A stretch of 64,000 bases of DNA from Myxococcota bacterium (GCA_030748735.1 JASMLK010000067.1:161-64160), one strand, 5' to 3'; positions 6,926 through 22,007 are shown, numbered from the stretch's first letter. The notes: generated by a model from the letters alone, not told the origin. Numbers and translations: made by a program.

Positions 6926-7080
6926 ACCGGTCTCCGGTTCGGATTCGCAATCGGGTGACCGCCAACACCCAGCGGAATCGCGGCCTTTCTCGACCCGAGG
7001 TCGAGCGCGAGGCCAAAGTCTCCGCAACGTGAGACTTGGTGGCGGTGGGTGGAGTCTGGGAGGAACTCGTCTCTGGGGGT
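6926..7080. repeat. Copy A (left-truncated) of the 202-bp repeat family plus tRNA-like 3' end
   Basis: Aligns by eye to copies B/C/D from ccggtctccggttcgg onward. Ends in tggtggcggtgggtggagtct...gaactc at the position where copy D carries the tRNA-Ser 3' end. Confidence 0.8.
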
Positions 7081-7233
7081 GATTCCCTGATCTATAGGGA
7101 AAATACAGGGAATCCGACTGCACTCGAGGATTGTGCGTTGAGTTCCGCGAGCGGAAAACGCCGGGGTTCCGCGTACTTCGCCGAGAGTTCCCTAGGCTCC
7201 GGAACAGCGAACGCTGCCCGGGGAACAGGGAAC
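7081..7233. promoter_or_regulatory. Inverted-repeat module, copy 1 (GATTCCCTG-N16-CAGGGAATC, then a degenerate TTCCCT-N10-CAGCGAA / CAGGGAAC)
   Basis: Perfect 9-bp inverted repeat at 7081-7089 and 7106-7114. The second motif lies 84 bp downstream. The module sits just 3' of the ATPase gene stop. Confidence 0.45.
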
Positions 7234-7291
7234 CTGGCGCCAACAACAGGGAGGCCGCGAGTGTTCCCGCCTCGACCGCGGCCGCCCACAG

Positions 7292-10200
7292 CTACTGCTT
7301 GCCAGCTCGAAGCTGCCACCAGAGGTGGAGCAGCTCGTTGCAGACCTCCTCCGGAAGCTCGCGTGCCGCGGGGCTGGCGAGCGCGCGGGCGATGAGATCC
7401 TGTTCATCGAGCACCGGACGCGGGTCGAGGTAGCCCTCGTCCTCCAGGTAGGTCGCGAGCTTCTCGGCGGCCTTCGGACGGAAGCGTGCGAGGAGTGGGT
7501 GCTCGCGCGATTGCAGAACTTCGATCAGGCGGCGGCCATCGTATCCGAGTTCCATTGCGATGGTCGCGACAGCCTCAAGGTATCGCTCGCTGATTGCGTT
7601 GCTCTCCTCGATTGCGGTGCGGTCAACGGGTTTGCCGCGACCCTCCGACCAGGACTCGCAGAACACTTCGAGGAGCCGCGAACGGGCATCGAGTTGTCTG
7701 GCGGCCTCCGCTTCATCCTTCAGGGAAGCAGCAAGGGGAGCTTCGGTTCGAGACAGCGTCCGCCACTGGCCAACCGTCTCGATCCGACTTGCGACGAGGC
7801 GTTTCAGAACGTGTAGGTCGTCCCAGAGCAGATAAAGCAGATGCTGGCCGAGGTACGCGGGACGCGGGTCGAATGTCGGCACCTCGATGAGAGCACCGTA
7901 CTCGTCCGGGCTAAGCCCGGTGGGGTCCGGAACGCTCGGCGGCGGTGCGATGCGCAACACCTCCGCCGACGACACCGCGGCGATACCCCGGCGCAGAAGC
8001 CCGAGATCAATGACCGCTGGCGGCGAGCAGCCCTCACTCTGGAGCGCTTCTCGGATCCGGTCGACGTCGACGTTGTCGTTCGTCAGATAGAAGATCTGCC
8101 GGTTCTCCTGCTCGGAGATTCGCCCAAGGCTTCGAGCGATGAGGTCGAAGCGCGCGGGATCGCTCTGGTCCAGCGCCTCGTCGAGAAAGAGCGGCAGCGG
8201 ACTCGCCCCTTCAGCTTCTTCAGCGAAGGCGATGCGCACCGCGAGCAGGAGCTGCGCACACTCACCTCCCGAGAGCTCGTTGAGCTGTTTACCCACGCCG
8301 GTACGAGAGGAAACAGCGATGAAGCTGCCACCGACTTCGGGTTCGATTCCGAGCTCGTACTCGTGGTGCGTAAAGAGCGCGAAAAGATCTCGCGCCCGCT
8401 TCAAGACCGCCGGCAGCTGCTTCGTCTCGTGCTCGGTCTTCACCTCGTCTAGGAGGAAGTCGCCGGCCAACGCCTCCAGTCCTCGTTCGCGCTTATCGGC
8501 GAGCATCGCCAGGGCATCGTCGTGACTCGCGATCAGATCCTCGAGGGTATGCGCCTCCGATGCCTGCTTGACCTCCGCCGCGATCTCGGCCGACTCGGTG
8601 CGAGCATCGTCCGCGGCGGCAGTCTCGCTCGCGAGTCGATCGCTCTCTCGCTCGAGGTCGCTCTGATCCAGATTGGCGAGCGCCGATTCGCCGGCCTCGG
8701 AGAGCTTGCGCTCGCCAATCCCGATGCTGGTCTGTAGTCCGCCGACTTCGTTCACTAGCTCCTGGTAGCGCTCAACCTTCCCGAGCAACTGGGAGAGTCC
8801 GGCGCGGTCACCGTGCTCGAGATCCGCGTCCCGGAAGATCTTCGCAATCGCCTCCTCGCTGCTCCGCATCTTCTCCCGCGCAGACTCGAGATCGTCGCTT
8901 GCGCGGCTCTCATCCTTGCGCGAATCCACGAGCAAGCGGCTGAGCTCTTCGACCTCGTGAACCAGAGCCTTCGCTGCCTCCGGGTCCTGGGGATCCTCCT
9001 CCCCGAGCCCAACGAGCCAATTCCCGAGCTCCTCTCGCTTCGCCTCGAAGTCAAGATCCAGGGCGCCGCAGCGACCTTCGGCCGCGGCCTCGGCGTCGCG
9101 CGCTTCGCGTAAGGCAATCAGCGCTCGGGCCGTATCCACCAGCTCCGCTGCTGCCGGGACACGGTCCAGGCGAAGGCGCGCAACGAGTTCCTCACCCCGA
9201 TCGCGGACGCTCTGTTCGCGGGTCCTCGCCGTCTCCAGATCGGATTCAATGCCCGCGCGCTCGATGGACCGGTCGCGCGCCCGCATCTCAGAGGCTCGGG
9301 ACTCCGCGATCTGCTGATCGATCTCCCGGAGTCGCTCATTCACGCTCGCGACCGTCCACGAGGCGGGCGCGTCGACGTTCGGCGGAAAAGCATCCATCGC
9401 CTTCTGCTGCGCGTCGGCGCGATCGTCGCTGCTCGACAGCAGCCAGGCACTGATCGCCCAGACAAGACCAGCGCCCGTGACGCCATGGAACGCCGGGTGG
9501 AACGCGATTCCGAGCGCGAGACCGGTCGCAGCAACGACAAGACCGACGACGGTGGCGGCAACCCGCGTCAGACCACCGATGCGGATTTCCGAGCCGCCCG
9601 TGTCCGGGGCCCTGAGCCAATCCCTCAGAGCCTCTGCCGCGCGCTCCCCGAGCTGCTGCTGCTTTTTTTGCTCCACGCTGAAGTCGTGGCCAGAGAGCAG
9701 CCTGAGGCGCTGCTCCAACGCCGCCCGGCCCTGCTCTACCTCTGTCGCCTCGCGCAGATACCTGTAGAGCTCTTCATCGTCTTCAAGCGCCAGCTCGGGC
9801 GGCGCGTCCTCCGACCCGCCGACGACCCGGCTCGCGTTCACCAGCTTCTTCTTCTCTGCTGCGAGTACGCCATAGGCGGTCTCGCGTCGAAGGGCGAGCT
9901 GCGCCCACGAGTCGGCGCGCTGTCGCCAGGCTGAGAGCTCGGACGCCTCGAGTGGCTCCTCGAGGCGACTCTCGACGATCCGGTTGCGTGCGTCGCGAAG
10001 CTCTCCTTCGTGTTGCGCCACCTTCTCGTTTGCTTCCTCGAGCTTCCGCTCCGCTGTTTCCAGCCAATCGAGCTCCAGGCCGACAATCTTCCCGCACGCA
10101 GGAGGAAGCGCGTCGAGCTCGGCCGTCAAGCGTTTCTGCTGCTCTCGAAGTCCGACCAGCTCTAGCGCCGTCGCAACGTGAGCCTGTCGCACGCGTGCGT

Positions 10201-10780
10201 TCTCACCTTCGCGGATCGTCTGCTCGAGCGAATTGAGTGTTTCTTCCCGCTCGGCCAGCGCCTCCTGCTTCAGCTGTGCCTTGCGAATCGCACCCGCTGC
10301 AGCGTCGACGTCCCTGCACTCCTTTTTCGCGAACCCGCGTCCGACCCTCTCGACGGCCTGGCTCCGCGCCTCTTCGAGGCTATAGCCTCCCGCCATCTGT
10401 AGCCGGATCTGCTTGGCGATCTCGCGGCCGCTCTCAGTCCCGGAGTCCATGAGGTCGCGCACGTCGAGGAGAAAACAGTCTTGGAGATGCCTCGCCGGTA
10501 GCGGCGGAGGCGCGCACTCCACGCCCTCTCGCTGCCAGACGTGGCGCGCACCGTCGCGCTGAACCGACCACGACTCTCCGTCGAGATCGATCCGCGCGTG
10601 GGCTGTCACGGCCGAACCGGACTCGTCGCTCCAGAGTAGGGCCCGGGTCGCGCGGCAGATGCTCGACTTCCCAATCGCGTTCGGGCCGACCACGACGTGC
10701 ACGCCATCGCCGAGCTTTTCGAGCGAGTAGGACGCATCGATTCCGGGGAGACGGACGATCTCCAGCCTGCGGAACTTCAT
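7292..10780 (-). CDS. SMC/Rad50/SbcC-like AAA ATPase (YhaN/SbcE-like) with central hydrophobic hairpin and C-terminal extension
   Basis: 1162 aa. Walker A GPNAIGKS (aa 32-39), long heptad-rich E/R/A/L stretches, two hydrophobic helices at aa 403-450, ABC signature LSGGE (aa 836-840) and Walker B LFLDEA (aa 864-869). Confidence 0.85.
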   Translation of the reverse strand: MKFRRLEIVRLPGIDASYSLEKLGDGVHVVVGPNAIGKSSICRATRALLWSDESGSAVTAHARIDLDGESWSVQRDGARHVWQREGVECAPPPLPARHLQDCFLLDVRDLMDSGTESGREIAKQIRLQMAGGYSLEEARSQAVERVGRGFAKKECRDVDAAAGAIRKAQLKQEALAEREETLNSLEQTIREGENARVRQAHVATALELVGLREQQKRLTAELDALPPACGKIVGLELDWLETAERKLEEANEKVAQHEGELRDARNRIVESRLEEPLEASELSAWRQRADSWAQLALRRETAYGVLAAEKKKLVNASRVVGGSEDAPPELALEDDEELYRYLREATEVEQGRAALEQRLRLLSGHDFSVEQKKQQQLGERAAEALRDWLRAPDTGGSEIRIGGLTRVAATVVGLVVAATGLALGIAFHPAFHGVTGAGLVWAISAWLLSSSDDRADAQQKAMDAFPPNVDAPASWTVASVNERLREIDQQIAESRASEMRARDRSIERAGIESDLETARTREQSVRDRGEELVARLRLDRVPAAAELVDTARALIALREARDAEAAAEGRCGALDLDFEAKREELGNWLVGLGEEDPQDPEAAKALVHEVEELSRLLVDSRKDESRASDDLESAREKMRSSEEAIAKIFRDADLEHGDRAGLSQLLGKVERYQELVNEVGGLQTSIGIGERKLSEAGESALANLDQSDLERESDRLASETAAADDARTESAEIAAEVKQASEAHTLEDLIASHDDALAMLADKRERGLEALAGDFLLDEVKTEHETKQLPAVLKRARDLFALFTHHEYELGIEPEVGGSFIAVSSRTGVGKQLNELSGGECAQLLLAVRIAFAEEAEGASPLPLFLDEALDQSDPARFDLIARSLGRISEQENRQIFYLTNDNVDVDRIREALQSEGCSPPAVIDLGLLRRGIAAVSSAEVLRIAPPPSVPDPTGLSPDEYGALIEVPTFDPRPAYLGQHLLYLLWDDLHVLKRLVASRIETVGQWRTLSRTEAPLAASLKDEAEAARQLDARSRLLEVFCESWSEGRGKPVDRTAIEESNAISERYLEAVATIAMELGYDGRRLIEVLQSREHPLLARFRPKAAEKLATYLEDEGYLDPRPVLDEQDLIARALASPAARELPEEVCNELLHLWWQLRAGKQ

Positions 10781-12123
10781 CGCTCCGCTCCCTCACCGCG
10801 CCTTGTCGGCTCGTGCTGGTCGAGCAGGGCGCTCAGGATCGACGAACCCGCAGCCTTTAGCGCGCGCGTGATCTCCTCATCGGCAAGGGGGTCAGCAGCA
10901 TCCCGCAGGTCTTGCAGTGGAGCGAAGTTCGACGCGTCCGCCAACGTCCGGAGCCTATCCCTCGTGCGGACAATCAGCGCATCGCGCTCCGCCCCCTCAG
11001 TCTCCAGGATCAAGAGCTTTCGGGCGAGCAAGCCAGGCGGGTCGTCTCCCTTGGCAAGCTCATGTAGATCGCGGGCAAGCTCGGTCGCATTGGTGATTTT
11101 GTTCACGACCGCCGTGGTCGCGCCGACGGTTCGGGTGATGTCACTCCAGCGCCGGCCCCCAACCCACGCATCGATCGCCGCGTAGGAGCGCGTGGTACCC
11201 GTCAAGCGTACCCGCAGCGCAAGCACGCTCGGCTCGACTCCTCGGGCGTGCAGCGCGCGAATGCGCTGATCGACGCTGGCGAGAACGGAGTCCCCCAGGT
11301 CCTCGGGCTGTTGATCCGGTTCGATGGCTAGGTCAATCGTCTCCCAGCGGAGCGGCGCGTTAGAGACGTGAGTGAGCGAGGTCTCACCCTCTGCCAGATC
11401 GACAAGCCAGGGACCCCGATCACCAACCTCTTTCGGATTAAGCCCGACAAGGGAGCCAAGGTAACCAGCGCGCAGGCCCGGGTTGTCGGAGCGTGTATCA
11501 CCCAGCGACGGCTTGTGGATGTGCCCGAGCAGCCATGTGTCGATTCCAGTTCGCGCGAGCTCACCCATGGTGACCGGCGCGTAGGGCCCGCCCGATGCAT
11601 CGAGATCGCAATGCATCACGCCGATCCGGGGTACACCCGGCTGCGCGGGAGGCAGCGACGAACCGGCAAAGTCGGCGACCGGACTCGAGGTGACCTGCCG
11701 CTGCGGAAACGACCAGCCCACCACCTCGCAAACCGACCGACCTTCGCGCTCGACCGCGACACACTCCCAACGACCACCCGCGCCGACAATTCGGAAGCCC
11801 GGGATCAACCGCGCAAGTCGCGGCAGTGCCTCGACATCGTGGTTGCCTACGACGCCGAGGACCGTGACACCCTCTGCAAGCAGCTTCAACACCGCCGCTT
11901 CGAGGTGCCGGAACGCCTCGTAGCGAGCGTTCGTGCTCTCGACTACGTCACCCGCAAAGACAACGGCGCTGACATCCTGCTCGGTGGCCAGCCGAACCGC
12001 CGCCTCCAGGCCCGCAGCAGGCGTCAGACGCTGCACGGCGATGCCCCGGTCGGCCGCGTCCTCCGCAACGCCGCTCGGCCGGGTGCCGAGGTGAACGTCG
12101 CCGATCGCAAGCAGCTTGGTCAT
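10777..12123 (-). CDS. Mre11/SbcD-like metallophosphoesterase nuclease (YhaO/SbcF-like)
   Basis: 448 aa with calcineurin-like motifs GDVHLG, FAGDVV, GNHD and GHIH. ATGA overlap with the downstream ATPase gene. Confidence 0.85.
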   Translation of the reverse strand: MTKLLAIGDVHLGTRPSGVAEDAADRGIAVQRLTPAAGLEAAVRLATEQDVSAVVFAGDVVESTNARYEAFRHLEAAVLKLLAEGVTVLGVVGNHDVEALPRLARLIPGFRIVGAGGRWECVAVEREGRSVCEVVGWSFPQRQVTSSPVADFAGSSLPPAQPGVPRIGVMHCDLDASGGPYAPVTMGELARTGIDTWLLGHIHKPSLGDTRSDNPGLRAGYLGSLVGLNPKEVGDRGPWLVDLAEGETSLTHVSNAPLRWETIDLAIEPDQQPEDLGDSVLASVDQRIRALHARGVEPSVLALRVRLTGTTRSYAAIDAWVGGRRWSDITRTVGATTAVVNKITNATELARDLHELAKGDDPPGLLARKLLILETEGAERDALIVRTRDRLRTLADASNFAPLQDLRDAADPLADEEITRALKAAGSSILSALLDQHEPTRRGEGAER

Positions 12124-12130
12124 GCGAGAA

Positions 12131-12254
12131 TCCTATCGGGAAAGTACGGGGAATTCCCTCTGAACCAGGCGAGTTTGGTTCTACCTAGAATGCGATTCGC
12201 CAATGATCCCGCGGATTCAGGCACAAATTCCTTGCGACCAGGAACAGGGAATTC
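12131..12254. promoter_or_regulatory. Inverted-repeat module, copy 2 (partial motif 1, then AATTCCTTG-N10-CAGGGAATT) immediately upstream of the nuclease gene
   Basis: cgggaaagtacggggaattccc lies 10-40 nt upstream of the ATG at 12123. The second motif is 83 bp away, the same spacing as in copies 1 and 3. Confidence 0.45.
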
Positions 12255-12694: not shown

Positions 12695-12936
12695 CTTTCG
12701 CGCGAATGAAGAGCGAACTTCAACCGCCGGACTCGGCGTCGGAGAAAAGCGCAGACTATGCCGTCACTGGACGCCCGAAATCCCGGTCTCCGGTTCCGGT
12801 ACGCGACGGCGCAACCGCCAACACCCCGCGGAATCGCGGCCTTTTCTCGGCTCGTTCCCGAGCACACGCCGAAAGTCTCTGCATGTGGAGACTTGATGGC
12901 GGTGGGTGGAGTCTCTCGCGAACTCGTCTCTGCAGT
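12695..12936. repeat. Copy B of the 202-bp repeat family plus tRNA-like 3' end
   Basis: Exactly 202 bp from ctttcgcgcgaatgaag to the base before tggcgg, the same length as copies C and D. Followed by tggcggtgggtggagtctctcgcgaactc. Confidence 0.85.
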
Positions 12937-13090
12937 GATTCCCTGTTCCATGGGGAAAGTACAGGGAAGTTCTCCAATATCTCAGTGCCCGGCCAAGGTC
13001 ACGGGCGGAATTGCCGAGCCTTTCCGCAGCCGTAACGTCGAATTCCCTGCGATCCGGAACAGGGAATTCATTTCGGTGTTCAGGGAAATC
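12937..13090. promoter_or_regulatory. Inverted-repeat module, copy 3 (GATTCCCTG-N16-CAGGGAAgt, then perfect GAATTCCCTG-N10-CAGGGAATTC)
   Basis: Perfect 10-bp inverted repeat at 13040-13049 and 13060-13069. Motif-to-motif spacing is 83 bp. Confidence 0.45.
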
Positions 13091-13246
13091 CAGGCAAGTT
13101 GGACCCGCCTCCAAGCTGCGGTGATGAAGCCAGCCGTTCTCCTCGGCGCCCCGCAATCAGGTCTCGACTGCCGGACGAATATGGAGAACAGACAGCCTCC
13201 GAATCAAAATACATACACCAATGAATGAAAGTGCTAGCGTCGCCAC

Positions 13247-13849
13247 ATGAGGCGACGAACCCAGGCCGAGCGCACCGCGGCAACCCGAGATGCGCTGATC
13301 ACGGCCACGCTCGAACTGCTGGTCGAGAGTGGCTGGGCCGGGATCACATCGGTGGCGGTCTGCTCTCGCGCGGGCCTGACACGAGGAGCCTTCGTCCACC
13401 ACTTCGACGGCCTCCCGGCACTCTTCTCCGCGGCGCTCGATTCCCGCTACGCAGCCTTGTCGGCGAAAGCCGGTGGCGGCGGTCCCCGCCCTACCTCGGT
13501 CGCCGAACTCGTGACGCAAACCTGGGAGACGATGACCGCGCTGGACTTCAAGGTGGTGATCGAAGCCTGGCTCGCGGCGGCGAACGACCCGACGCTTGGT
13601 GCCGCGATCGGTCCCGTGATCGAGCGCTTCGCGAAGCTCGTTCACCCGGATCAACGCGCAGACCTGCTCGTCGACGACGCCGCGCAGTCCTTCTTCCTGA
13701 TGGCGCGCGAGACGATGCTCGGTCTCTCACTTGGACGCGCCACCAACCGAGGACGACCGCTCGAACACGAAGCGCGCGTCCTCGAGCAGCTCGTTCGTCT
13801 CGCTGACGAACACGATGCCCGAATCGGGCAACAGGAACCGGAGCCATGA
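13247..13849 (+). CDS. TetR-family transcriptional regulator
   Basis: 200 aa with HTH ITSVAVCSRAGLTRGAFVHHF. Stop overlaps the next gene (ATGA). Confidence 0.85.
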   Translation: MRRRTQAERTAATRDALITATLELLVESGWAGITSVAVCSRAGLTRGAFVHHFDGLPALFSAALDSRYAALSAKAGGGGPRPTSVAELVTQTWETMTALDFKVVIEAWLAAANDPTLGAAIGPVIERFAKLVHPDQRADLLVDDAAQSFFLMARETMLGLSLGRATNRGRPLEHEARVLEQLVRLADEHDARIGQQEPEP

Positions 13850-16068
13850 ACACCACGCACGAACCCACTTCGACCGGCACCCGCACCGGCTACTGCGTCT
13901 GCACGATCTGCGACATCGGCTGTCAGCTTCGCGCGGTGTCCGTCAACGGACAGCTCGAGAAGATCGTCGCGCACGACTCACCTGCGGTGAAGTCGAACGT
14001 CTGCTTCAAGGGCACGGCTGCGCCCCACATCCACAATCACGCCGATCGATTGCGCGTGCCGTTGAAGCGCAAGGGCGAGCGCGGAGAGGATCGCTGGGAA
14101 GAGATCTCCTACGAGCAGGCGATGGACGAGATCGCCGAGCGGCTTCGAAGCGTCGTCGCCGAGCACGGCCCCGAGGCGCTCGCGGTTTCGACTTCGGGCT
14201 GGAACACGCAGACGACCCACGGTTTCGACCGCCGCTTCATGAACCTGCTGGGCTCGCCGAACTGGATCTCGGGCGTGTCGCTCTGCGCGGGCAACACCGC
14301 GGCGGTCAACCGCCTCACCTATGGTTGGATGCCGTTTCCCGACATCGCGAACACCGACTGCGTCGTGCTCCTCGGCCACAACCCGCGCAAGCATTCGTGG
14401 ACCCCGATCTTCAACATGATCGAAGCGGCGCGCAAACGCGGCGCGAAGACGATCGTCGTCGATCCGCGCGTTTCCGAGCAGGCCGAACACGCAACGCTGC
14501 ACCTCCAGATTCGCGCCGGCACCGACGCGGCGCTGCTGCTGGGATGGACGAAGGTCATCATCGACGAAGGGCTCTACGACAAGGATTTCGTACGCGACTG
14601 GTGTATCGGCTTCGGCGAGTTGAGCGAACGCGTCGACGAGTATCCCCTCGAACGCGTCGCCGATATCACCGGGGTCGATCCCGAATCGATCGCCGAAGCC
14701 GCGCGTATCTACGCGACGGCGGATGGCGCCGTGATTCCCTGGACGCCCATCACCGACCAGCAGCTCGACTCGACCTCCGGGATCCGTCTCCAGTCCATCC
14801 TTCGCGCCATCACGGGAAACCTCGACGTCGTCGGCGGCGAGATGCTGAGCGGTCTCCATCCCGGTTGGCGAACCGAGGCCGAACTCCAACTCCACGATGC
14901 GATCTCGCCCGAGCAACGCGCCAAACAGCTCGGCTACGACAAACACCCCGTCTACACCTATCGCACGGCCGAGATGCTGAGACCGCACATGGAACGCGTT
15001 CATGGCCAACCCTGGATCGACCAGGTGATGGGCTGCCACATGGCGAATCCCACCGAGGTATTCCGGGCCATGGCCGACGGCGATCCCTATCCCGTCAAGG
15101 CGTTCATCACGCTCGGCAACAACACGCTGCTCTCCTACCCAAACCAACACCAGATCCACCGTGCGCTGTTGAATCAGGATCTGGTCGTCGCGCACGAGAT
15201 CTTCATGACCCCGACCGCGATGCTCGCCGACTACGTGCTCCCGGGTGATGTATTCAGCGAGCGCAACCACGTCGCCGATTCGTGGGCATGGGGAAACCGG
15301 CTGACGCTCTCCGAAGCCGTGGCGAATCCGCCCGAGCAGGCCAGTTCGACGTTCCAGTTCTGGACCGACCTCGCGCGGCGGATGGGTTTCGGCGAACACT
15401 TCGAATGGAACAGCATCGAAGAACTACTCGACCATCGACTCGAGCCGTCGAGTCGCAGCTTTGCCGATTTCAGGAAGACGACGGTGATGGACCTCCCCGT
15501 GCCGAAATACCGCAAGTACCGCAAGACGGGCTTCGCGACCCCGTCGGGCAAGGTCGAGCTTTCGTCGTCGCTACTCGCGGAGCTGGGATTCGACCCGCTT
15601 CCCTATCACCGTCCGGCTCCATCGCCGACCGACGAGTACCCCTACCTCGTCTTTTCCGGTGTGCGCGAAGACCCGTTCTTCCAGACGGGACAGCGCAACG
15701 TCGGTGTGCTGCGTCGACGCTCGCCGGCGCCGAGGTTCTTCGTTCATCCCGAAGACGGCGAGAGGGAAGGGTTCGTCGAAGACGATTGGGCGCGGCTCGA
15801 AACGCCGCACGGACACGTCTATGCGAGGGTGAGCCTTCAAGCCGGAATGCGGCGCGGGCATGTGCGCGTGCCGCACGGTTGGTGGTATCCGGAGACGCGC
15901 GGAAACGTCGAGCTGGCGGGTGCATTCGTCTCTTCCGACGCCGTGCTCACCGTCGACACCGATGACCTGCTCGATCACGAACAGGGGATCCCGCACTTCA
16001 AGGGGTACCCCGGACGTCTGGTTCCCTGCGATCCCCCCGCCGGCATGTCGGCGACGACTCTCGGGTGA
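13846..16068 (+). CDS. molybdopterin-dependent oxidoreductase (formate dehydrogenase / DMSO reductase superfamily catalytic subunit)
   Basis: 740 aa with an N-terminal CxxCxxxC...C 4Fe-4S motif (CTICDIGC...VCFKG) and MGD-family length and layout. No in-frame TGA. Confidence 0.85.
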   Translation: MNTTHEPTSTGTRTGYCVCTICDIGCQLRAVSVNGQLEKIVAHDSPAVKSNVCFKGTAAPHIHNHADRLRVPLKRKGERGEDRWEEISYEQAMDEIAERLRSVVAEHGPEALAVSTSGWNTQTTHGFDRRFMNLLGSPNWISGVSLCAGNTAAVNRLTYGWMPFPDIANTDCVVLLGHNPRKHSWTPIFNMIEAARKRGAKTIVVDPRVSEQAEHATLHLQIRAGTDAALLLGWTKVIIDEGLYDKDFVRDWCIGFGELSERVDEYPLERVADITGVDPESIAEAARIYATADGAVIPWTPITDQQLDSTSGIRLQSILRAITGNLDVVGGEMLSGLHPGWRTEAELQLHDAISPEQRAKQLGYDKHPVYTYRTAEMLRPHMERVHGQPWIDQVMGCHMANPTEVFRAMADGDPYPVKAFITLGNNTLLSYPNQHQIHRALLNQDLVVAHEIFMTPTAMLADYVLPGDVFSERNHVADSWAWGNRLTLSEAVANPPEQASSTFQFWTDLARRMGFGEHFEWNSIEELLDHRLEPSSRSFADFRKTTVMDLPVPKYRKYRKTGFATPSGKVELSSSLLAELGFDPLPYHRPAPSPTDEYPYLVFSGVREDPFFQTGQRNVGVLRRRSPAPRFFVHPEDGEREGFVEDDWARLETPHGHVYARVSLQAGMRRGHVRVPHGWWYPETRGNVELAGAFVSSDAVLTVDTDDLLDHEQGIPHFKGYPGRLVPCDPPAGMSATTLG

Positions 16069-16072
16069 TGCG

Positions 16073-16276
16073 ATGACGATGCGCAGCGAGCACGATCAGC
16101 GCATTCGCGAGTTCAAGACTGCGCTGCTCGGGCGGGTCGCGAGACTTGCGATGACGACCCGGAAAACCGGCCTCGACGGCCTCGTGAAGAGCCTGCTCGC
16201 CAAGCAGGCGGGCGACTCCACCGCTCCGGACCCCGACCTCGAGCATCCCGCCGACTGGGATCGACCGATCGACTGA
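16073..16276 (+). CDS. small hypothetical protein (67 aa)
   Basis: ATG 5 nt after the oxidoreductase stop. High GC3 is consistent with coding. No recognisable motif. Confidence 0.4.
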   Translation: MTMRSEHDQRIREFKTALLGRVARLAMTTRKTGLDGLVKSLLAKQAGDSTAPDPDLEHPADWDRPID

Positions 16277-16322
16277 AGAAGCGGCCCGGCTGGCGATCCG
16301 ATCCTTCTACGGCGGCAATTTC

Positions 16323-16334
16323 GTGCATATGCAC
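16323..16334. promoter_or_regulatory. perfect 12-bp palindrome GTGCATATGCAC, candidate MarR operator
   Basis: Read directly; ends 12 nt upstream of the MarR ATG. Confidence 0.35.
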
Positions 16335-16346
16335 TAGTGTGCCCAC

Positions 16347-16787
16347 ATGGATCGAGACTGCAGCGCGTTCAAGGTTCGACGGCTGTCCCGCCAGGTGACC
16401 CAGTTCTACGACCAGGCGCTGCGAAGCGAAGGCCTGAAGTCGACCCAGTTCCATCTACTCACCGTCATTGGTGACGAGGGGCCTCTCACGATCGGCCAAC
16501 TCGCCGAGCGCGTCGGAGCCGAGCGCACCTCTGTGACGCGAGCCGTCCAGGCCATCGAGACGAGCGGCCTTGTCGAGGTTGGACCGGGGCCCGATGGACG
16601 CTCGAAGTCTGTTCGCCTCACGCGCGCGGGGCGCGCATTGCTCGATCGCGTCGATCCCATCCGCGAAAAGCAGGAGGAGGCTTTCCGTCGCGCCCTCGCT
16701 GGCGTGACCTCGAAGCGCTTCATCGACGACCTGGTTCGCGCCGCCGACCGTCTGCAAGAACTGATCGAGCAAGGCGAAGAGCACTGA
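16347..16787 (+). CDS. MarR-family transcriptional regulator
   Basis: 146 aa with a winged-helix region LTIGQLAERVGAERTSVTRAVQAIETSGLV...DGRSKSVRLT. Confidence 0.85.
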   Translation: MDRDCSAFKVRRLSRQVTQFYDQALRSEGLKSTQFHLLTVIGDEGPLTIGQLAERVGAERTSVTRAVQAIETSGLVEVGPGPDGRSKSVRLTRAGRALLDRVDPIREKQEEAFRRALAGVTSKRFIDDLVRAADRLQELIEQGEEH

Positions 16788-16831
16788 TTTGGGCGGCGCC
16801 CGTTCGTGGTCGCCAACGAGGAGATCCCCCC

Positions 16832-17566
16832 ATGGCGATGAAACTACTGACCTCCCCGACCCCCAACGGCTGGAAGGTCACGATCATGGTCGAAGAGCTG
16901 CGCGAAGCGGGCTTCGAGCTGGCCGATCTCACCGTCACACCGATCGACATCATGAAGGGCGATCAGTTCACGGAAGCCTTCACGGCCGTGAATCCCAACC
17001 AGAAGATCCCGGCCCTCGTCGACGGCGACCGCCACGTGATCGAGAGCTGCGCGATCCTTCAATACCTCGGTGAGAAGTTTCCTTCTGCATTGCTTCCGGA
17101 AGGCGATGCACGCTGGGACGTACTGCCCTGGGTGTATTGGCAGGCCGCCAACGTGGGGCCGATCTTCGGCAACAAGCTCGCCTACACGCGTTACATCACC
17201 GACGTGCCCGACGAAGCGCGCGCCCATCCCCTCGAACGCTTTGGCAAGGAAGCGCGGCGTCTCGCCGGTGTGCTGGATCACAAGCTCGAAGGGCAGCCCT
17301 TCATCTGTGGCGACGATTTCACCATCGCCGACATCGCCACCTATCCGTGGTTGCGCGGGTGGAAGTGGAGCAAAGTCGACATCACCGATCGCCCGAACGT
17401 AATGGCGTGGATCGATCGCGTGCGCGCACGGCCCGGGGTCGGCCGCGGCCTCGCCTATGGCGTCCCCGAAGATGAGATCGACCGCTGGAGCAAAGACCGA
17501 CGCGAAGGCTACGCGAAGGGAGGCGCATCGATCGCTTCGAACGATCGCCTGCGCTCGGATCTCTGA
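16832..17566 (+). CDS. glutathione S-transferase family protein (Nu/YfcG-like)
   Basis: 244 aa with N-terminal thioredoxin-like TPNGWKV...NPNQKIPALVD...ESCAILQYL. Confidence 0.85.
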   Translation: MAMKLLTSPTPNGWKVTIMVEELREAGFELADLTVTPIDIMKGDQFTEAFTAVNPNQKIPALVDGDRHVIESCAILQYLGEKFPSALLPEGDARWDVLPWVYWQAANVGPIFGNKLAYTRYITDVPDEARAHPLERFGKEARRLAGVLDHKLEGQPFICGDDFTIADIATYPWLRGWKWSKVDITDRPNVMAWIDRVRARPGVGRGLAYGVPEDEIDRWSKDRREGYAKGGASIASNDRLRSDL

Positions 17567-17661
17567 ACGATCCTCCCCTGCGTGGCACACCTATGCACCG
17601 CGAGTCGACTCGAGTCGAACGAACACGGCTCGACGAGCACCCGCCCAAGGAGCCAAGACAC

Positions 17662-18330
17662 ATGGACATCTCCCTCGACCTGACCGATCAGATCGCATGC
17701 ATTCGCATGGACGACGGCAAGAAGAATGCGATCACCCCAGCTGCCGTCGCCGATCTCGCGCAAGCCCTCGACGAGGCAGAGGCCAAGGCCAACGCACTCG
17801 TGCTCGCGGGTCGCCCGGGCTCGTTCTGCGCGGGGTTCGACCTCGCCACCATGACCGGGGGCGACCTGCGCGCAATCGGCGAACTCGGCCGGGGCGGAGG
17901 ACGCCTCGCACTGCGGCTCTACCAATACCCGAAGCCTCTCGTTGCGGCCTGCACCGGCCATGCCTTCACGATCGGGGCGCTCTGGCTCCTGGCTGCGGAT
18001 ACACGAATCGGCGAGGAGGGCCCGTTCAAGCTCGCGATGACCGAAACGAAGATGGGCATGGGCCTGCCCGCCTGGGCCTTCGAGCTGCTCGAGGCGCGAA
18101 TCGCGAATACCCACTTCGTTCCCGTCTGCACGCAGTCCAAGGCCTATGACCCGGTGGGTGCGATCGCTGCGGGCTTCCTCGACGAAGTCGTACCGCAAGG
18201 GAGAGCCGAGGCCGTCGCCCTCGAAACGGCCTCCGAACTCGCGAAGCTCGCACCGGCTGCATATACCGCAAACAAGTTGACACGACGGACCCGAAGCTTC
18301 GAGATTATGGACCGCGATCTCGGGTCCTGA
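17662..18330 (+). CDS. enoyl-CoA hydratase/isomerase (crotonase) family protein
   Basis: Motif GSFCAGFDL and crotonase-like length. Start set at the MDISL ATG. Confidence 0.8.
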   Translation: MDISLDLTDQIACIRMDDGKKNAITPAAVADLAQALDEAEAKANALVLAGRPGSFCAGFDLATMTGGDLRAIGELGRGGGRLALRLYQYPKPLVAACTGHAFTIGALWLLAADTRIGEEGPFKLAMTETKMGMGLPAWAFELLEARIANTHFVPVCTQSKAYDPVGAIAAGFLDEVVPQGRAEAVALETASELAKLAPAAYTANKLTRRTRSFEIMDRDLGS

Positions 18331-18393
18331 CGATCGTTTCGCGAAGGCGCCCGTAGAACCGTCGGCATGGTGTGCCGACCCAAAGGAGGAGCC

Positions 18394-18912
18394 ATGCCCA
18401 CTTCGTTTTATGACCTGACGATCGGCAGCTATGTCCAGATCGTCGAAGCGATCGGCGGAGTACTTCAGAAAGGCGCCGACCACTGTGCCAAAGAGGGAAT
18501 CGATCTCGCCGAAATCGTCGAGACGCGACTCGTTGGCAATATGGCCAACTTCCACTTTCAGGTAACCAGCATCACCCATCACTCGCTGGGTGCGGTCAAC
18601 GCATACAAGTCGGGCGAGTTCCGACCGCCGAGCTACGAAGACTGCGACTATGCCGCGCTCCAGGCGATGACCCAGGCGACCCTCGACGAACTGAAGGCGC
18701 AATCGCGCGACGAAATCGAATCACTCGCCGGCGGTAAGGTCGTATTCAAGATGGGGGGCAACGAGATTCCCTTCACCGCGGAGAACTTCGCGCTCTCGTT
18801 CTCTCTCCCGAACTTCTACTTCCATGCCACGACCGCCTACGACATTCTCCGAATGAAGGGCGCGCCGATCGGCAAGCTGGATTTCCTCGGCGCGATGAGG
18901 GCGGGCGCCTAG
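18394..18912 (+). CDS. DUF1993-like protein
   Basis: About 172 aa with C-terminal LPNFYFHATTAYDILRMKG, characteristic of the family as I recall it. Confidence 0.75.
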   Translation: MPTSFYDLTIGSYVQIVEAIGGVLQKGADHCAKEGIDLAEIVETRLVGNMANFHFQVTSITHHSLGAVNAYKSGEFRPPSYEDCDYAALQAMTQATLDELKAQSRDEIESLAGGKVVFKMGGNEIPFTAENFALSFSLPNFYFHATTAYDILRMKGAPIGKLDFLGAMRAGA

Positions 18913-18940
18913 CGGTACGGATCTCGAAGCGTGGACTTGA

Positions 18941-19166
18941 CTTTCGCGCGAATGAAGAGCGAATCCGGACCGCCGAACTCGCCGACCGAGAAAAGCGCCA
19001 GCAACACGATGACTTGCGGCCCGAAATCCCGGTCTCCGGTTCGGGGACGCAACCGAACAACCGCCAACACCCCACGGAATCGCGTTGTTTTCCGAGACCG
19101 TTCCCGAGCACGGGGCGGAAGTCTCCGCAACGCGGGACTAGATGGCGGAGAGAGTGGGATTCGAAC
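18941..19166. repeat. Copy C of the 202-bp repeat plus a 24-nt exact duplicate of the tRNA-Ser(GGA) 3' end (att-like)
   Basis: 18941-19142 aligns over 202 bp to copy D (roughly 80% identity by eye). 19143-19166 (tggcggagagagtgggattcgaac) is identical to 21278-21301. Confidence 0.85.
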
Positions 19167-19388
19167 TCTCAGTAGGATCTCGCGAATCTTGTGGCGAATG
19201 GAGAACACGCGAATGGGACGCACATGAATTGCGCACTCTTGGAGAGTTCGAACCGTCAGGTGCCCTTGTGCCGTCCCTGACGCCCTCGGTACCCCCATCG
19301 GGGAGCCCAGCGGAGACCGCCATTTCTCGATCAACTCGTTGACGCTCATCCACCTACCGATCTCTGATCGATCTGCTAAACGTAGGTC

Positions 19389-19598
19389 ATGCAAACGGTC
19401 ACTCTGTCTACCAAGTACCAACTCGTCATTCCGCGTGACGTGCGGCAGCGGCTGGAACTCGAGCCGGGGACGAAGCTGACGGTCGTGGAGAAGGGCGGGA
19501 TCCTCTATCTCGTCCCGGAGCGACCGATCGAGGAGATGCGGGGGATCGCTCGCGGAACGCGGAAGAAGGGACTCCGCGAGAAAAAGGATCGCCATTGA
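19389..19598 (+). CDS. vapB: AbrB/MazE/SpoVT-family antitoxin (VapB-like)
   Basis: 69 aa with swapped-hairpin motif YQLVIPRDVRQRLELEPG. 4-nt overlap with the PIN gene. Confidence 0.8.
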   Translation: MQTVTLSTKYQLVIPRDVRQRLELEPGTKLTVVEKGGILYLVPERPIEEMRGIARGTRKKGLREKKDRH

Positions 19599-19963
19599 TC
19601 CTCGTCGACTCGAGCGGCTGGATCGAGTACCTCGCGGCGCGGCCCAAGGCGGATTCCTTTGCACCGTACATTGAAGGAACGGAGCCTCTCGTCTCGAGCG
19701 CGATTCAGATCTACGAGATCTACAAGGTCGTCAGAAGAGACGTGAGTGAAGAGCGAGCGATTGCCGCGGTATCGGCGCTCCGAACGACGACGATCGAACC
19801 CCTGGCCGATACTCTGGCCCTTGAAGCCGCCGACATCGCCCTGGAATTCGGGCTCGCGATGGCGGATGCGATCATCTTCGCGACGGCTGCACGACACGAA
19901 GCCGAAATCGTGACAGGCGATGCGGACTTCGAGGGTCTGCCGAAAGTAACGCTGATCCGCTGA
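19595..19963 (+). CDS. vapC: PIN-domain ribonuclease toxin (VapC-like)
   Basis: 122 aa with MILVDSSGWIEYL and later acidic residues (ADAIIFATA...TGDADF), typical of VapC. Confidence 0.85.
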   Translation: MILVDSSGWIEYLAARPKADSFAPYIEGTEPLVSSAIQIYEIYKVVRRDVSEERAIAAVSALRTTTIEPLADTLALEAADIALEFGLAMADAIIFATAARHEAEIVTGDADFEGLPKVTLIR

Positions 19964-20008
19964 GGGATCGAAGACGCTCGGCTGGCCCGATGATCTGGAT
20001 CGAACGCT

Positions 20009-20815
20009 TCAGCTGTTCGCCCGCTCGAACTCCTCGAATCGTACCGTCAGCGCTTCACGACTGGGACGCTGAGCTGCGGCGCGGGGAAGTTCGATGCGCG
20101 TCTCGTGAATCTCCTGAAGCCCGTGCCTCAGCATCGGACCATCCGACTCCGAAAGAATCCGCTGGGGCACGACGATTCGGAAGTCGGGTTGAATACCGAG
20201 CAGATTCCGATCGAACGCGGCATGGTGGATCTTGCAGAGGCTGATGCCGTTCGAGACGACCGGCTCTCCGTCCGGATCGGAGTCGGCGACGATGTGTGCG
20301 GCGTCGAGCAACTCGGCATGCTTGAGCCGGCAGACGGCACAATGCTCCCGGTAGGCTCGCAAGACGCGTTGCCGGAACGTCTGCTGGTGTAGGCGCTGTC
20401 GGGTCGTGACGAGGCCGTACCGGCGGGTGAGATCGGGCTCAGAAACGCGATCATCCAATGAGACCCCCGTCGCGAGACTGTCGACGTCGAGCCGAAACTC
20501 CAAGCAGTCGGGAGAGTCGCCGATGACATGTACTGGCCACGCCGCTAGATACTTGCCCGGCACCGTCGCATGGAAGTAGATCAGCGGCGCGTTTGCCCGC
20601 ATCGCGTTTCGGACCCACCGGTTGTTGTGGTGATCCGGATCCGTTCCGCGGTACTTGTAGATGACCGTCCCGTCGGGCTGAAAGCCGTCGTCATACGGCC
20701 GAGGCCTGCCCGGTTTGGGTGCGACGGTGGTGAGGCTCAGTGCGCGATCGTCGAGGATGGCGGGCTTGAAGATCCCTTGCGGTCCAATCAGTCTGACCTG
20801 CTTCGCACGGAACAT
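20009..20815 (-). CDS. HNH endonuclease (HNH_2 / putative restriction endonuclease family), probably disrupted at its 5' end
   Basis: CAVC...LLDAAHI...NGISLCKIHHAAFD HNH core. The frame continues upstream to an ATG at 20926 but is broken by an in-frame TAG at 20882-20884. Confidence 0.7.
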   Translation of the reverse strand: MFRAKQVRLIGPQGIFKPAILDDRALSLTTVAPKPGRPRPYDDGFQPDGTVIYKYRGTDPDHHNNRWVRNAMRANAPLIYFHATVPGKYLAAWPVHVIGDSPDCLEFRLDVDSLATGVSLDDRVSEPDLTRRYGLVTTRQRLHQQTFRQRVLRAYREHCAVCRLKHAELLDAAHIVADSDPDGEPVVSNGISLCKIHHAAFDRNLLGIQPDFRIVVPQRILSESDGPMLRHGLQEIHETRIELPRAAAQRPSREALTVRFEEFERANS

Positions 20816-21075
20816 GAAACCATTCGCGAGAGTCTCTCGATCGAACGTCTCGCCAAAGAGCCTGGTCTGTTCCGCGAGAAACTAAAACGCGGCGGAACGA
20901 ACAGCAGAATCCAGTTCGTCGGGCATAGTCCGTTCTCGGGCTCCCGTCGCCGTCAACGTCGCTCGAGGCTCTCGAATGATCGTTTCGAACGATAGGACCA
21001 TCAAGCGCGATCCGTGGTGCGGAAATGTCGCTCGAATGCACCGATCCCTCGAAGGGGATCGACAATCGGCTCGCA

Positions 21076-21277
21076 CTTTCGCGCGAATGAAGAGCGAATC
21101 CGGACCGCCGAACTGGCCGGCAGAGAAAAGCGCCGCCAACGCGATGACTTGCGGCCTGAAAGCCGAGTCTCCGGTTCGGGAACGCAAGAGCACAACCGCC
21201 AACACCCCGCGGAATCGCGGCCTTTTCGCGGATCGTTCCCGAGCGCACGCCGAAAGTCTCTGCGCTTAGAGACCAAA
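21076..21277. repeat. Copy D of the 202-bp repeat, directly 3' of intact tRNA-Ser(GGA)
   Basis: 202 bp from ctttcgcgcgaatgaag to the base before the tRNA CCA end. Contains hairpin GTCTCT-N6-AGAGAC next to the tRNA end. Confidence 0.85.
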
Positions 21278-21365
21278 TGGCGGAGAGAGTGGGATTCGAA
21301 CCCACGGTAGGTTGCCCTACACACGCTTTCCAAGCGTGCGCCTTAAGCCACTCGGCCATCTCTCC
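21278..21365 (-). tRNA. tRNA-Ser (anticodon GGA)
   Basis: 88 nt. 5' GGAGAGA pairs with TCTCTCC, discriminator G, encoded CCA, anticodon loop TTGGAAA, long variable arm, T-loop GGTTCGAATCC. Confidence 0.9.

Positions 21366-21508: not shown

Positions 21509-21602
<94 letters not shown>

Positions 21603-21913: not shown

Positions 21914-22007
<94 letters not shown>

What the first reader, a model, noticed from the sequence alone, without database searches (positions are those of the whole stretch)
6926..21365. Four direct copies of a 202-bp repeat, each ending in a tRNA 3'-end-like sequence: serial accretion at tRNA-Ser(GGA)?
Copies B (12695), C (18941) and D (21076) each measure exactly 202 bp from ctttcgcgcgaatgaag to the base before TGGCGG. 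Copy A is truncated on the left. Copy D abuts the intact tRNA-Ser(GGA). Copy C is followed by a perfect 24-nt duplicate of the tRNA 3' end (19143-19166 equals 21278-21301). Copies A and B are followed by a diverged tRNA-like end. All four copies keep a hairpin next to the tRNA end with compensatory changes (GTCTCT/AGAGAC, GTCTC/GAGAC, AGTCTCC/GGGACT). The copies split 14 kb into three segments: the ATPase/nuclease pair, a metabolic block, and the vapBC+HNH islet. This looks like tandem islands stacked at a tRNA gene. Two things are atypical: the duplicated unit of about 226 bp is far longer than usual att cores, and no integrase is present. C versus D identity is roughly 80% by eye.
Basis: partly seen in the sequence, partly recalled or inferred. 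Interest (0 to 1): 0.65.

Follow-up and report, generated by a model that had tools for sequence, protein, structure and literature searches.

The report
Repeat-bounded gene cassettes stacked at tRNA-Ser
Three blocks of accessory genes sit one behind another downstream of a serine tRNA gene, each bounded by the same ~200-base non-coding repeat that follows a tRNA-like end; this repeat family marks variable, integrase-less gene arrays at serine tRNA genes in many uncultured marine Myxococcota.

Summary
Copies B, C and D are each 202 bp. Copy A is a 113-bp stump. Copy D abuts tRNA-Ser(GGA), and C follows a perfect 24-nt copy of the tRNA 3' end.

The repeat is not local. I found 87 copies in 67 loci (window, marine Myxococcota genome bins, metagenome contigs). 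Nearly every copy directly follows ...CCGCCA. That end belongs either to an intact tRNA-Ser (GGA, GCT or CGA) or to one of a few conserved pseudo-tRNA ends. Copies on one contig always share orientation and lie 0.2-6.5 kb apart.

Cargo between copies is mostly toxin-antitoxin and defence genes, plus ordinary enzymes. No working recombinase lies beside any array; relatives show only an intact serine recombinase 5 kb from one unit (L091) and a decayed one (L021).

Close relatives carry different cargo at the same tRNA, and one has no repeat at all. One PIN toxin gene sits 29-30 nt behind the repeat in six contigs with three different left-hand contexts.

Best reading: cassettes or islets accreted by site-specific recombination at the tRNA-Ser 3' end, with junctions retained and recombinases lost or acting in trans. 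The repeat is non-coding, matches no Rfam family and contains terminator-like hairpins on both strands. The mechanism is inferred, not shown. An integron-like platform is not excluded.

The parts
21278..21365 (-). Intact tRNA-Ser(GGA), the anchor of the array. tRNA-Ser(GCT) at 21513-21602 and tRNA-Ser(TGA) at 21918-22007 lie upstream and have no unit behind them.
21076..21277 (-). Unit D (202 bp), directly after the tRNA CCA end. It has a post-CCA hairpin, a CGCG hairpin, conserved blocks and the tail TTCGCGCGAAAG.
19169..21075 (.). Block 3 cargo: HNH_2 nuclease 20009-20815 (-), vapB (MazE/AbrB type) 19389-19598 (+), vapC (PIN) 19595-19963 (+). A remnant of a unit tail (ATTCGC repeats) lies at about 19169-19250.
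19143..19168 (-). C-type pseudo-tRNA end (GAGTTCGAATCCCACTCTCTCCGCCA). 24 nt are identical to the tRNA-Ser(GGA) 3' end. It is a hybrid of the family's C-type core on the left and the resident tRNA sequence on the right.
18941..19142 (-). Unit C (202 bp).
13132..18940 (+). Block 2 cargo: TetR 13247-13849, molybdopterin oxidoreductase 13846-16068, MarR 16347-16787, GST 16832-17566, enoyl-CoA hydratase 17593-18330, DUF1993 18367-18912.
12897..13131 (-). A/B-type left module of junction B: TTCCCTG/CAGGGAA repeats (palindrome at 13043-13066), then CAGAGACGAGTTCGC..AGACTCCACCCACCGCCA (12897-12914).
12695..12896 (-). Unit B (202 bp).
7292..12254 (-). Block 1 cargo: calcineurin-like phosphoesterase 10777-12123 and a 1162-aa SMC/AAA_27-type ATPase 7292-10780 (an SbcCD-like pair). 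Further TTCCCTG-type motifs lie at 12128-12254, just upstream of the operon.
   Evidence: the same two-gene architecture is cargo in L024
7040..7236 (-). A/B-type left module of junction A, with the pseudo-tRNA end at 7040-7057.
6927..7039 (-). Unit A, truncated after the GAACCGGAGAC block and fused to a cupin-like ORF that lacks its 5' end (6584 to about 6926, - strand). This looks like a deletion scar at the outer edge of the array.

Best explanation
The region is a tRNA-anchored flexible island. Three gene blocks lie one behind another downstream of tRNA-Ser(GGA). Each junction is composite. It consists of a tRNA-Ser-3'-like end (...CCGCCA) followed by a non-coding unit of about 200 nt. In junctions A and B the end is preceded by a module of about 205 nt with TTCCCTG repeats.

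I read unit plus pseudo-tRNA end as the two halves of an attachment site carried by small integrative elements or cassettes. Recombination with the 3' end of tRNA-Ser, or with a resident junction, would put the incoming unit next to the tRNA. It would also push older blocks outward, so D is the youngest block and A the oldest.

The recombinase is not in the blocks. It either acts in trans or was lost, as in cis-mobilizable elements. Relatives hold an intact large serine recombinase (L091) and a decayed one (L021) in such blocks. The unit also carries terminator-like hairpins on both strands that would insulate neighbouring blocks.

Shown here: the repeat family, its strict adjacency to tRNA-Ser-like ends, its uniform orientation, variable occupancy in relatives, the same cassette behind different left contexts, similarity breakpoints at CCGCCA, and the non-coding nature of the unit. 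Inferred: site-specific recombination itself, the order of arrival, and the identity of the enzyme.
For: 1. Profile searches find 87 unit copies in 67 loci. About 15 follow an intact tRNA-Ser (GGA, GCT or CGA). The rest follow conserved pseudo-tRNA ends of four types. Only about 5, which are 5'-truncated or atypical, lack CCGCCA.
2. In all 16 multi-copy contigs the copies share one orientation. Spacing is 0.2-6.5 kb with a median of about 1.1 kb, and cargo-less tandems exist.
3. Occupancy differs among relatives. L081 (SerRS 94% identical) has tRNA + unit + Phd/PIN + C-type end + unit. L083/L091 has unit plus an island of more than 5 kb with a serine recombinase. L086 has tRNA-Ser(GGA) without any unit.
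4. One PIN toxin gene (84-96% aa identity) lies 29-30 nt behind a unit in six contigs. The left context is a true tRNA in 2, A/B type in 3 and type 5 in 1. Identity of the left part and identity of the unit are uncoupled.
5. The unit of L063, which follows an A/B end, is 95% identical to the unit of L049, which follows a true tRNA-Ser(GCT). The similarity breaks at CCGCCA.
6. Hybrid cores occur. C-type ends carry the resident tRNA's acceptor sequence in the window and L047, a partial switch in L058, and the ancestral form in L081 and L038.
7. vapB or Phd plus a C-type end are linked in the window, L058 and L081.
8. Serine recombinase genes, one of them decayed, lie in family arrays: L021 3-776 (truncated) and L091 8091-9743.
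9. The unit is non-coding: no 3-base periodicity and stops in all frames.
10. The concept of accretion followed by loss of integration genes is established for CIMEs (PMC5704250). Stacked partial tRNAs with remnants are described for tycheposons (10.1101/2020.12.28.424599).
Against: No recombinase gene lies in the 14 kb or was detected elsewhere in the window by motif and profile search, and Pfam scans of about 200 cargo ORFs in other loci returned only IS481-like transposases and the few serine recombinases. No excised, circular or empty-site joint was seen in the source metagenomes, though only unitigs were available. The A/B-type end shares only CCGCCA and a loose T-arm likeness with tRNA-Ser, so it is not a displaced copy of the target as the classical model predicts. 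Similarity breakpoints also occur at the outer edges of the junction modules (L044/L050, L059/L069). Homologous recombination between conserved junctions could produce that pattern. Block G+C content equals that of the flanks. Serine recombinases normally use short sites without arms, so the long conserved junction is unexplained if they are the enzyme.
Confidence: 0.55

Rival explanations
1. An integron-like, dedicated cassette platform. The unit would be an attC-like site recognised as a folded single strand, the tRNA-Ser 3' end would play the part of attI, and a single recombinase encoded elsewhere in the genome would insert and excise cassettes.
For: Cassettes are small (median spacing about 1.1 kb), lack recombinases and are rich in toxin-antitoxin pairs, as in chromosomal integrons. 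The unit holds two nested, conserved inverted pairs (CCGAACC/GGTTCGG and GGAGAC/GTCTC) around a variable, covarying central hairpin. This is an R-box / L-box / variable-stem layout. Cells are 88% paired against 37-49% in slid controls, and many G-U pairs favour the sense strand. The first gene behind a unit points towards it in 28 of 43 cases. Arrays without a neighbouring integrase are known as CALINs (PMC4889954).
Against: The conserved pairs never vary, so the structure is untested by covariation except in two hairpins. The sequences do not fit RYYYAAC / GTTRRRY. Cassette boundaries lie about 20-25 nt beyond the GTTCGG box, not within it. The junction is 260-420 nt, against 57-141 nt for attC. 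Multi-gene blocks up to 6.5 kb occur, in both orientations. No IntI-like gene was seen.
Confidence: 0.15
2. The unit is primarily a functional transcript or insulator: a 3' trailer RNA of tRNA-Ser or a bidirectional terminator module. Arrays would then arise because conserved copies serve as anchors for homologous recombination that swaps the genes between them, with no site-specific recombination.
For: There is a sense terminator-like hairpin with covariation followed by TTTTCTCT, and an antisense hairpin CCGCGGAATCGCGG followed by CTTTTC. The sense strand folds better than the antisense strand (-64 against -53 kcal/mol). Similarity between copies is mosaic, with breakpoints at several module edges. 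Block composition is native.
Against: The unit is absent behind the other two tRNA-Ser genes of this window and behind tRNA-Ser(GGA) in relative L086, so it is not an intrinsic trailer. Homologous exchange does not explain why every internal copy is preceded by a tRNA-like 3' end, nor the cargo-less tandem copies. There is no Rfam match and no RNA data.
Confidence: 0.17
3. Local tandem duplication of the tRNA-Ser(GGA) 3' end plus its trailer, followed by unrelated insertions between the copies.
For: tRNA-Ser genes are themselves tandem here, 235-405 bp apart. Cargo-less tandem units have a similar period of 200-325 bp. B, C and D share a lineage-specific tail.
Against: The window's copies are no closer to each other (71-84%) than to copies in other genomes (L005 75-82%). 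The A/B ends are a different, widely shared module. The same cassette plus unit occurs in other genomes behind other contexts.
Confidence: 0.05

Closest known systems
Tandem accretion of integrative elements and cis-mobilizable elements (CIMEs), e.g. ICESt1/ICESt3-related islands (review PMC5704250)
   Same: Several blocks sit at one tRNA-type target, separated by retained att sites. The blocks lack integration and transfer genes. Newer elements are thought to integrate at the regenerated target.
   Different: Here the retained junction is 260-420 nt and conserved across many genomes. The blocks are very small and often hold a single toxin-antitoxin pair. No autonomous helper element with the same junction was found. 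The A/B core is not a copy of the target tRNA.
Tycheposon islands of marine Prochlorococcus (10.1101/2020.12.28.424599)
   Same: These are marine hosts with flexible islands seeded at tRNA genes (tRNA-Ser among those labelled). Stacked elements are separated by partial tRNAs, and degenerate remnants are present.
   Different: Tycheposons are defined by integrase and replication hallmark genes and att sites of about 40 nt. The present arrays have neither hallmark and add a long conserved arm. The host phylum is also different.
Chromosomal integrons and CALINs (PMC4889954)
   Same: Arrays of promoter-poor small cassettes with many toxin-antitoxin genes, bounded by structured imperfect-palindrome repeats in one orientation, sometimes with no integrase nearby.
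   Different: The sequence motifs do not fit the attC consensus. The repeats are 2-4 times longer. Each repeat is fused to a tRNA-like end. The array starts at a tRNA gene rather than at intI/attI. Multi-gene blocks are common.
tRNA 3' external transcribed spacer RNAs (e.g. 3'ETS-leuZ of E. coli; from my own knowledge, not checked here)
   Same: A conserved, possibly structured sequence lies immediately 3' of a tRNA and would be co-transcribed with it.
   Different: Those are single-copy host features, not repeated with pseudo-tRNA ends and not bounding variable genes.

Membership tests
Classical tRNA-integrated genomic island (Islander-type definition, PMC4383910) | Intact tRNA gene at one end | tested here: met
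   tRNA-Ser(GGA) at 21278-21365 scores 61 bits against Rfam tRNA.
Classical tRNA-integrated genomic island (Islander-type definition, PMC4383910) | Displaced 3' fragment of the same tRNA as a direct repeat at the far end | tested here: inconclusive
   Met for block 3 (24 of 24 nt at 19143-19166). Not met for blocks 1 and 2, whose ends share only CCGCCA and a loose T-arm likeness.
Classical tRNA-integrated genomic island (Islander-type definition, PMC4383910) | Integrase gene inside the island | tested here: not met
   None was found in 6926-21365 or elsewhere in the window.
CIME / accretion array | attL- and attR-like sites retained while integration and transfer genes are lost | tested here: met
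   Junction modules lie at all four boundaries and there is no recombinase. A decayed serine recombinase sits in the related array L021.
CIME / accretion array | Excision or mobilisation by the integrase of a related autonomous element | not testable with these tools
   No autonomous element with the same junction was found. No excision joints appear in the unitig data.
Integron / CALIN | attC sites of 57-141 nt with RYYYAAC ... GTTRRRY core sites, and cassette boundaries within GTT | tested here: not met
   The boxes are TCCGAAC and GTTCGGA (one or two positions off the consensus). Cargo starts about 20-25 nt beyond them. The junction is 260-420 nt. The IntegronFinder model was not available.
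Integron / CALIN | Folded-strand structure (R box, L box, variable terminal stem) | tested here: inconclusive
   A nested layout is predicted and 88% of cells are paired, but the boxes are invariant. Covariation occurs only in helices 2 and 6.
Integron / CALIN | Integron integrase (IntI) adjacent to the array (not required for a CALIN) | tested here: not met
   SerRS and SelB flank the tRNA side. No tyrosine recombinase was detected in any locus beside an array.
Tycheposon | Hallmark integrase plus replication module within an element flanked by partial tRNAs | tested here: not met
   Neither hallmark is present in the three blocks.
Any curated RNA family (Rfam 15) | Match at or above the gathering score | tested here: not met
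   Only the three tRNAs match. A relaxed scan of junction B gives nothing better than E = 2.2.

The most novel reading that the evidence does not exclude
Marine Myxococcota may possess a previously undescribed cassette-capture system that works like an integron but is anchored on tRNA-Ser genes. A trans-encoded recombinase would recognise a composite site of about 250-400 nt (a tRNA-Ser-3'-mimicking core plus a structured arm). It would insert, stack and shuffle promoter-insulated cassettes carrying toxin-antitoxin, defence and metabolic genes.
Probability: 0.15. Interest if true: 0.85.

Novelty: new variant of a known kind. Interest (0 to 1): 0.55.

Why it matters
If the junctions are real recombination sites, they define a simple sequence tag: ...CCGCCA plus the CGCGATTCCGCGGGGTKTTGGCGG core. 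That tag locates the flexible, defence-rich part of genomes in a poorly known, uncultured marine lineage. It also points to a recombinase with tRNA-Ser specificity that acts on integrase-less cargo. That would add a third model, beside integrons and tycheposons, for how small gene cassettes are collected at one chromosomal address. Even in the ordinary reading (decayed stacked islands), the family gives dozens of natural before-and-after comparisons for studying island turnover. It also explains why assemblies of these genomes break at tRNA-Ser loci.

Tried and rejected
**Protein-coding unit.** Rejected: there is no codon periodicity, and stops occur in every frame in many copies.

**Known RNA family.** No Rfam hit at gathering or relaxed thresholds.

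**Default RNAalifold on the full alignment.** It gave almost no structure. A RIBOSUM run on trimmed columns gave a nested structure, but most helices are invariant and so untestable.

**Sigma-70 promoter in the junction.** None was found.

**Phage attP.** The unit is absent from IMG/VR. The single first hit, L019, was a chance match. The TTCCCTG module does occur in three 'viral' contigs. There it flanks prophage remnants and is not followed by the unit.

**Recombinase hunt.**
- Motif regexes, seven Pfam scans of about 200 cargo ORFs and jackhmmer with a tyrosine and a serine recombinase were run.
- They found only IS481-like transposases and three related large serine recombinases (L078, L021, L083/L091).
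- The IS481-like elements have their own 26-bp inverted repeats, so they are ordinary insertion sequences.
- Extending the L083 island to L091 showed a DUF2924 + serine recombinase + ParB-methylase + DUF5681 + broken terminase module, but no second junction within 15 kb. This did not settle the enzyme.

**Excision or empty-site evidence in reads.** Only Logan unitigs of DNA runs exist. Depth is even and there are no informative joints. The listed joints are cross-matches among tRNA genes. No RNA runs exist.

**Foreign composition of the blocks.** Not seen.

**Synteny of the left flank with relatives.** None was found, so the true outer boundary of the variable region is unknown.


Full report
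**1. Observation**

The window (64% G+C) carries three tRNA-Ser genes on the minus strand:
- GGA at 21278-21365
- GCT at 21513-21602
- TGA at 21918-22007

Seryl-tRNA synthetase and SelB follow on the plus strand.

The string CTTTCGCGCGAATGAAG occurs exactly at 12695, 18941 and 21076. TGGCGG begins at 12897, 19143 and 21278.

Copy A (6927-7039) keeps only the 113 nt nearest the tRNA-like end. C is 84% identical to D and 71% to B. The 25-nt core of the repeat occurs four times in 64 kb, only in these copies, against 0.01 expected.

Copy C is preceded by 26 nt that match the tRNA 3' end with one mismatch, so 24 nt are perfect. Copies A and B are preceded by an identical 18-mer, AGACTCCACCCACCGCCA.

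One caveat applies. In the two seawater metagenomes that hold this genome at about 10x, the unitigs end inside the repeats. All blocks are present at even depth, but their order rests on the original assembly.

**2. The three blocks**

| Block | Coordinates | Content |
|---|---|---|
| 1 | 7292-12123, minus strand | Calcineurin-like phosphoesterase plus a 1162-aa SMC/AAA_27 ATPase (SbcCD-like pair); no PADLOC match |
| 2 | 13247-18912, plus strand | TetR, molybdopterin oxidoreductase, MarR, GST, enoyl-CoA hydratase, DUF1993 |
| 3 | 19389-20815 | vapBC pair and an HNH_2 nuclease |

No recombinase is present. The G+C content of the blocks equals that of the flanks.

**3. The repeat is a family, not a local duplication**

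A scan of one genome per species found the core in Myxococcota genome bins. A metagenome scan added 54 contigs, mostly marine. A profile of the unit finds 87 copies in 67 loci.

Printing the 70 nt upstream of every copy shows that nearly all follow ...CCGCCA. About 15 distinct copies follow an intact tRNA-Ser:
- GGA in the window, L005, L045 and L081
- GCT in eight or more contigs
- CGA in L038, L040 and L051

The rest follow one of a few conserved pseudo-tRNA ends:
- The commonest (about 30 copies, including A and B) is ...CCAGAGACGAGTTCGCnnnAGACTCCCCCCACCGCCA.
- The type of copy C is ...GTACTGAGAGTTCGAATyCyACTnnCTCCGCCA.
- Two further types exist.

Only about five copies, which are 5'-truncated or atypical, lack the end.

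In all 16 contigs with more than one copy, the copies share orientation. Spacing runs from about 200 bp (tandem copies with no cargo) to 6.5 kb, with a median near 1.1 kb. Many copies lie at contig ends, as expected of a repeat that breaks assemblies.

**4. Anatomy of the junction**

The unit has a variable 5' third. This begins with a hairpin that shows real compensatory change across the family: 4 of 5 pairs have double changes. The 3' two-thirds are strongly conserved and consist of these blocks:
- GAAAA..CGCGATTCCGCGGGGTKTTGGCGGT
- CCGAACCRGAGAC
- TTTnTCTCTGT..GGyGGTTCGG
- a tail of ATTCGC repeats, after which similarity stops sharply

The unit is non-coding and matches no Rfam family.

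RIBOSUM-weighted RNAalifold predicts nested pairings: CCGCCA:UGGCGG, the CGCG hairpin, CCGAACC:GGUUCGG and GAGAC:GUCUC. On the alignment, 88% of cells pair, against 37-49% when partners are slid. However, these helices are invariant. Only the post-CCA hairpin and a central variable hairpin covary.

The central hairpin is followed by TTTTCTCT. On the other strand, the CGCG hairpin is followed by CTTTTC. Both look like intrinsic terminators.

The A/B ends are the tip of a separate module of about 205 nt. It has three direct ATTCCCTG motifs and two inverted ones, including the palindrome ATTCCCTG-N10-CAGGGAAT. It has sharp outer boundaries. In the window it spans 12915-13131 and 7058-7236.

The same module, without a unit behind it, occurs in three IMG/VR contigs. 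There it flanks prophage remnants: ParB-methylase, DUF5681, large terminase and, in L078, DUF2924 plus a large serine recombinase. A shorter form of the motif abuts the start of DUF5681 genes.

**5. Evidence that the blocks turn over**

*(a) Relatives found through SerRS.*

| Locus | SerRS identity | State at tRNA-Ser(GGA) |
|---|---|---|
| L081 | 94% | Same three tRNAs, then unit + Phd/PIN + C-type end + degenerate unit |
| L083/L091 | 86% | One unit, then an island with a PDC-S19 candidate defence gene, DUF2130, a ParB-like gene, a serine recombinase with DUF2924 and a broken terminase |
| L086 | 81% | tRNA-Ser(GGA) followed by tRNA-Arg, with no unit |

The unit is therefore acquired. It is not an intrinsic trailer of the tRNA.

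*(b) One cassette behind several contexts.* The same PIN toxin gene (84-96% aa identity) lies 29-30 nt behind a unit in six contigs. The left context is a true tRNA-Ser(GGA) in two, the A/B module in three and a fifth type in one. Left-part identity and unit identity are uncoupled; for example L020/L012 are 89% against 61%.

*(c) Breakpoint at CCGCCA.* The unit of L063, behind an A/B end, is 95% identical to the unit of L049, behind a true tRNA-Ser(GCT). The similarity begins at CCGCCA.

*(d) Hybrid cores.* C-type cores are hybrids. In the window and L047 the right half carries the resident tRNA's acceptor sequence. L058 switches later. L081 and L038 keep the ancestral form. Site-specific exchange or conversion within the core would leave this pattern.

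*(e) Cargo.* Toxin-antitoxin genes dominate (PIN x5, Gp49/HigB x4, Fic, Phd). There are also defence genes: a BREX fragment beside the L016 array, PDC-S19 and HNH. An SbcCD-like pair like that of block 1 is cargo in L024. Ordinary enzymes make up the rest.

**6. Recombinase**

None sits beside the arrays. Motif searches, Pfam scans of about 200 ORFs and jackhmmer found only two things. The first is IS481-like insertion sequences with their own inverted repeats. The second is three related large serine recombinases: L078, a truncated one in L021 about 2 kb from an A/B module, and L091 in the island behind the L005 unit.

These make a serine recombinase a candidate. But such enzymes normally need only short sites, and the L091 island shows no second junction within 15 kb. 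The enzyme remains unknown.

**7. Interpretation**

The best-supported reading (confidence about 0.55) is serial accretion. Small elements or cassettes carry, as the two halves of their attachment site, a pseudo-tRNA end and the unit. Recombination at the tRNA-Ser 3' end puts the incoming unit next to the tRNA and displaces older blocks outward. Recombinase genes have been lost or act in trans.

This matches the CIME/accretion scheme (PMC5704250) and the stacked partial-tRNA islands of tycheposons (10.1101/2020.12.28.424599). It differs in four ways:
- the junction is long and conserved
- the blocks are very small
- hallmark genes are absent across the whole family
- the commonest core is not a copy of the target tRNA

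Three rivals remain:
- An integron-like platform with folded attC-like sites (0.15). It is attractive because of the cassette size, the toxin-antitoxin content and the nested inverted boxes. The core motifs, site length and boundary positions do not fit attC, and the boxes show no covariation.
- A functional trailer RNA or terminator module whose conserved copies merely serve as anchors for homologous exchange (0.17). This would explain the mosaic breakpoints at module edges. It would not explain the tRNA-like end before every internal copy, nor the absence of the unit in L086.
- Local tandem duplication (0.05). The cross-genome relationships argue against it.

**8. Verdict**

The feature is a member of a widespread and, as far as I could find, undescribed family of junction repeats (four literature searches). 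These repeats mark integrase-less cassette arrays at tRNA-Ser genes in marine Myxococcota. I rate it a new variant of a known kind, of moderate interest. The interest would be high if a dedicated trans-acting recombinase is found.

Noticed in passing
window 22111-25342: Seryl-tRNA synthetase is followed directly by the selenocysteine elongation factor SelB. The ORFs overlap as listed, and the called genes in relatives overlap by about 13 nt. Both sit next to the three tRNA-Ser genes. ARAGORN found no tRNA-Sec in the 64 kb. The SerRS-SelB pairing is conserved in relatives L082-L087.
   Followed up: partly
window 7292-12123 (-) and L024 3223-7964: A phosphoesterase (448 aa) and an SMC/AAA_27 ATPase (1162 aa) have overlapping stop and start codons, forming an SbcCD-like pair. 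It has no PADLOC match. The same two-gene architecture recurs as cargo in metagenome contig L024 (25% aa identity for the phosphoesterase). It may be an uncatalogued defence pair.
   Followed up: partly
window 12128-12254; L075 about 6411; L077 about 1115; L079 about 5036: The TTCCCTG / CAGGGAA motif of the A/B module also lies just upstream of the phosphoesterase start codon in the window. It also directly abuts the ATG of DUF5681 (small-terminase-like) genes in phage-like contigs. It looks like a protein-binding operator or promoter element shared by mobile elements of this lineage.
   Followed up: partly
L020 6387-7600; L037, L060, L056, L066 left of the A/B module: An IS481-like insertion sequence has 26-bp inverted repeats (GTGTGCCAAAAGTCGGCCGA...). 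In four other contigs its end abuts the outer edge of the A/B module, which suggests a preferred insertion point there.
   Followed up: partly
window 6584-6926 (-): A cupin-like ORF has no plausible start codon and runs straight out of the truncated copy A. This looks like a deletion that removed the outer half of copy A and the 5' end of the gene.
   Followed up: partly
L086 99-9814: In a relative with 81% identical SerRS, tRNA-Ser(GGA) is separated from tRNA-Ser(GCT) and tRNA-Ser(TGA) by a 9-kb two-partner-secretion / CHAT-domain block. It is followed by tRNA-Arg(GCG) with no unit. The tRNA-Ser cluster itself is therefore a rearrangement hot spot.
   Followed up: no
L091 4133-9743; L078/L088: A compact module occurs in two circularly permuted orders in different contigs. 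It comprises ParB-like DNA methylase, DUF5681, large terminase (broken in L091), DUF2924 and a large serine recombinase. It may be a small phage satellite of these Myxococcota.
   Followed up: partly
window 21366-21512 and 21603-21917: The trailers of tRNA-Ser(GCT) and tRNA-Ser(TGA) share their own 64-nt repeat, a hairpin CCATTCGCGGCGAAGCCGCGAATGG. It is unrelated to the 202-bp unit.
   Followed up: no
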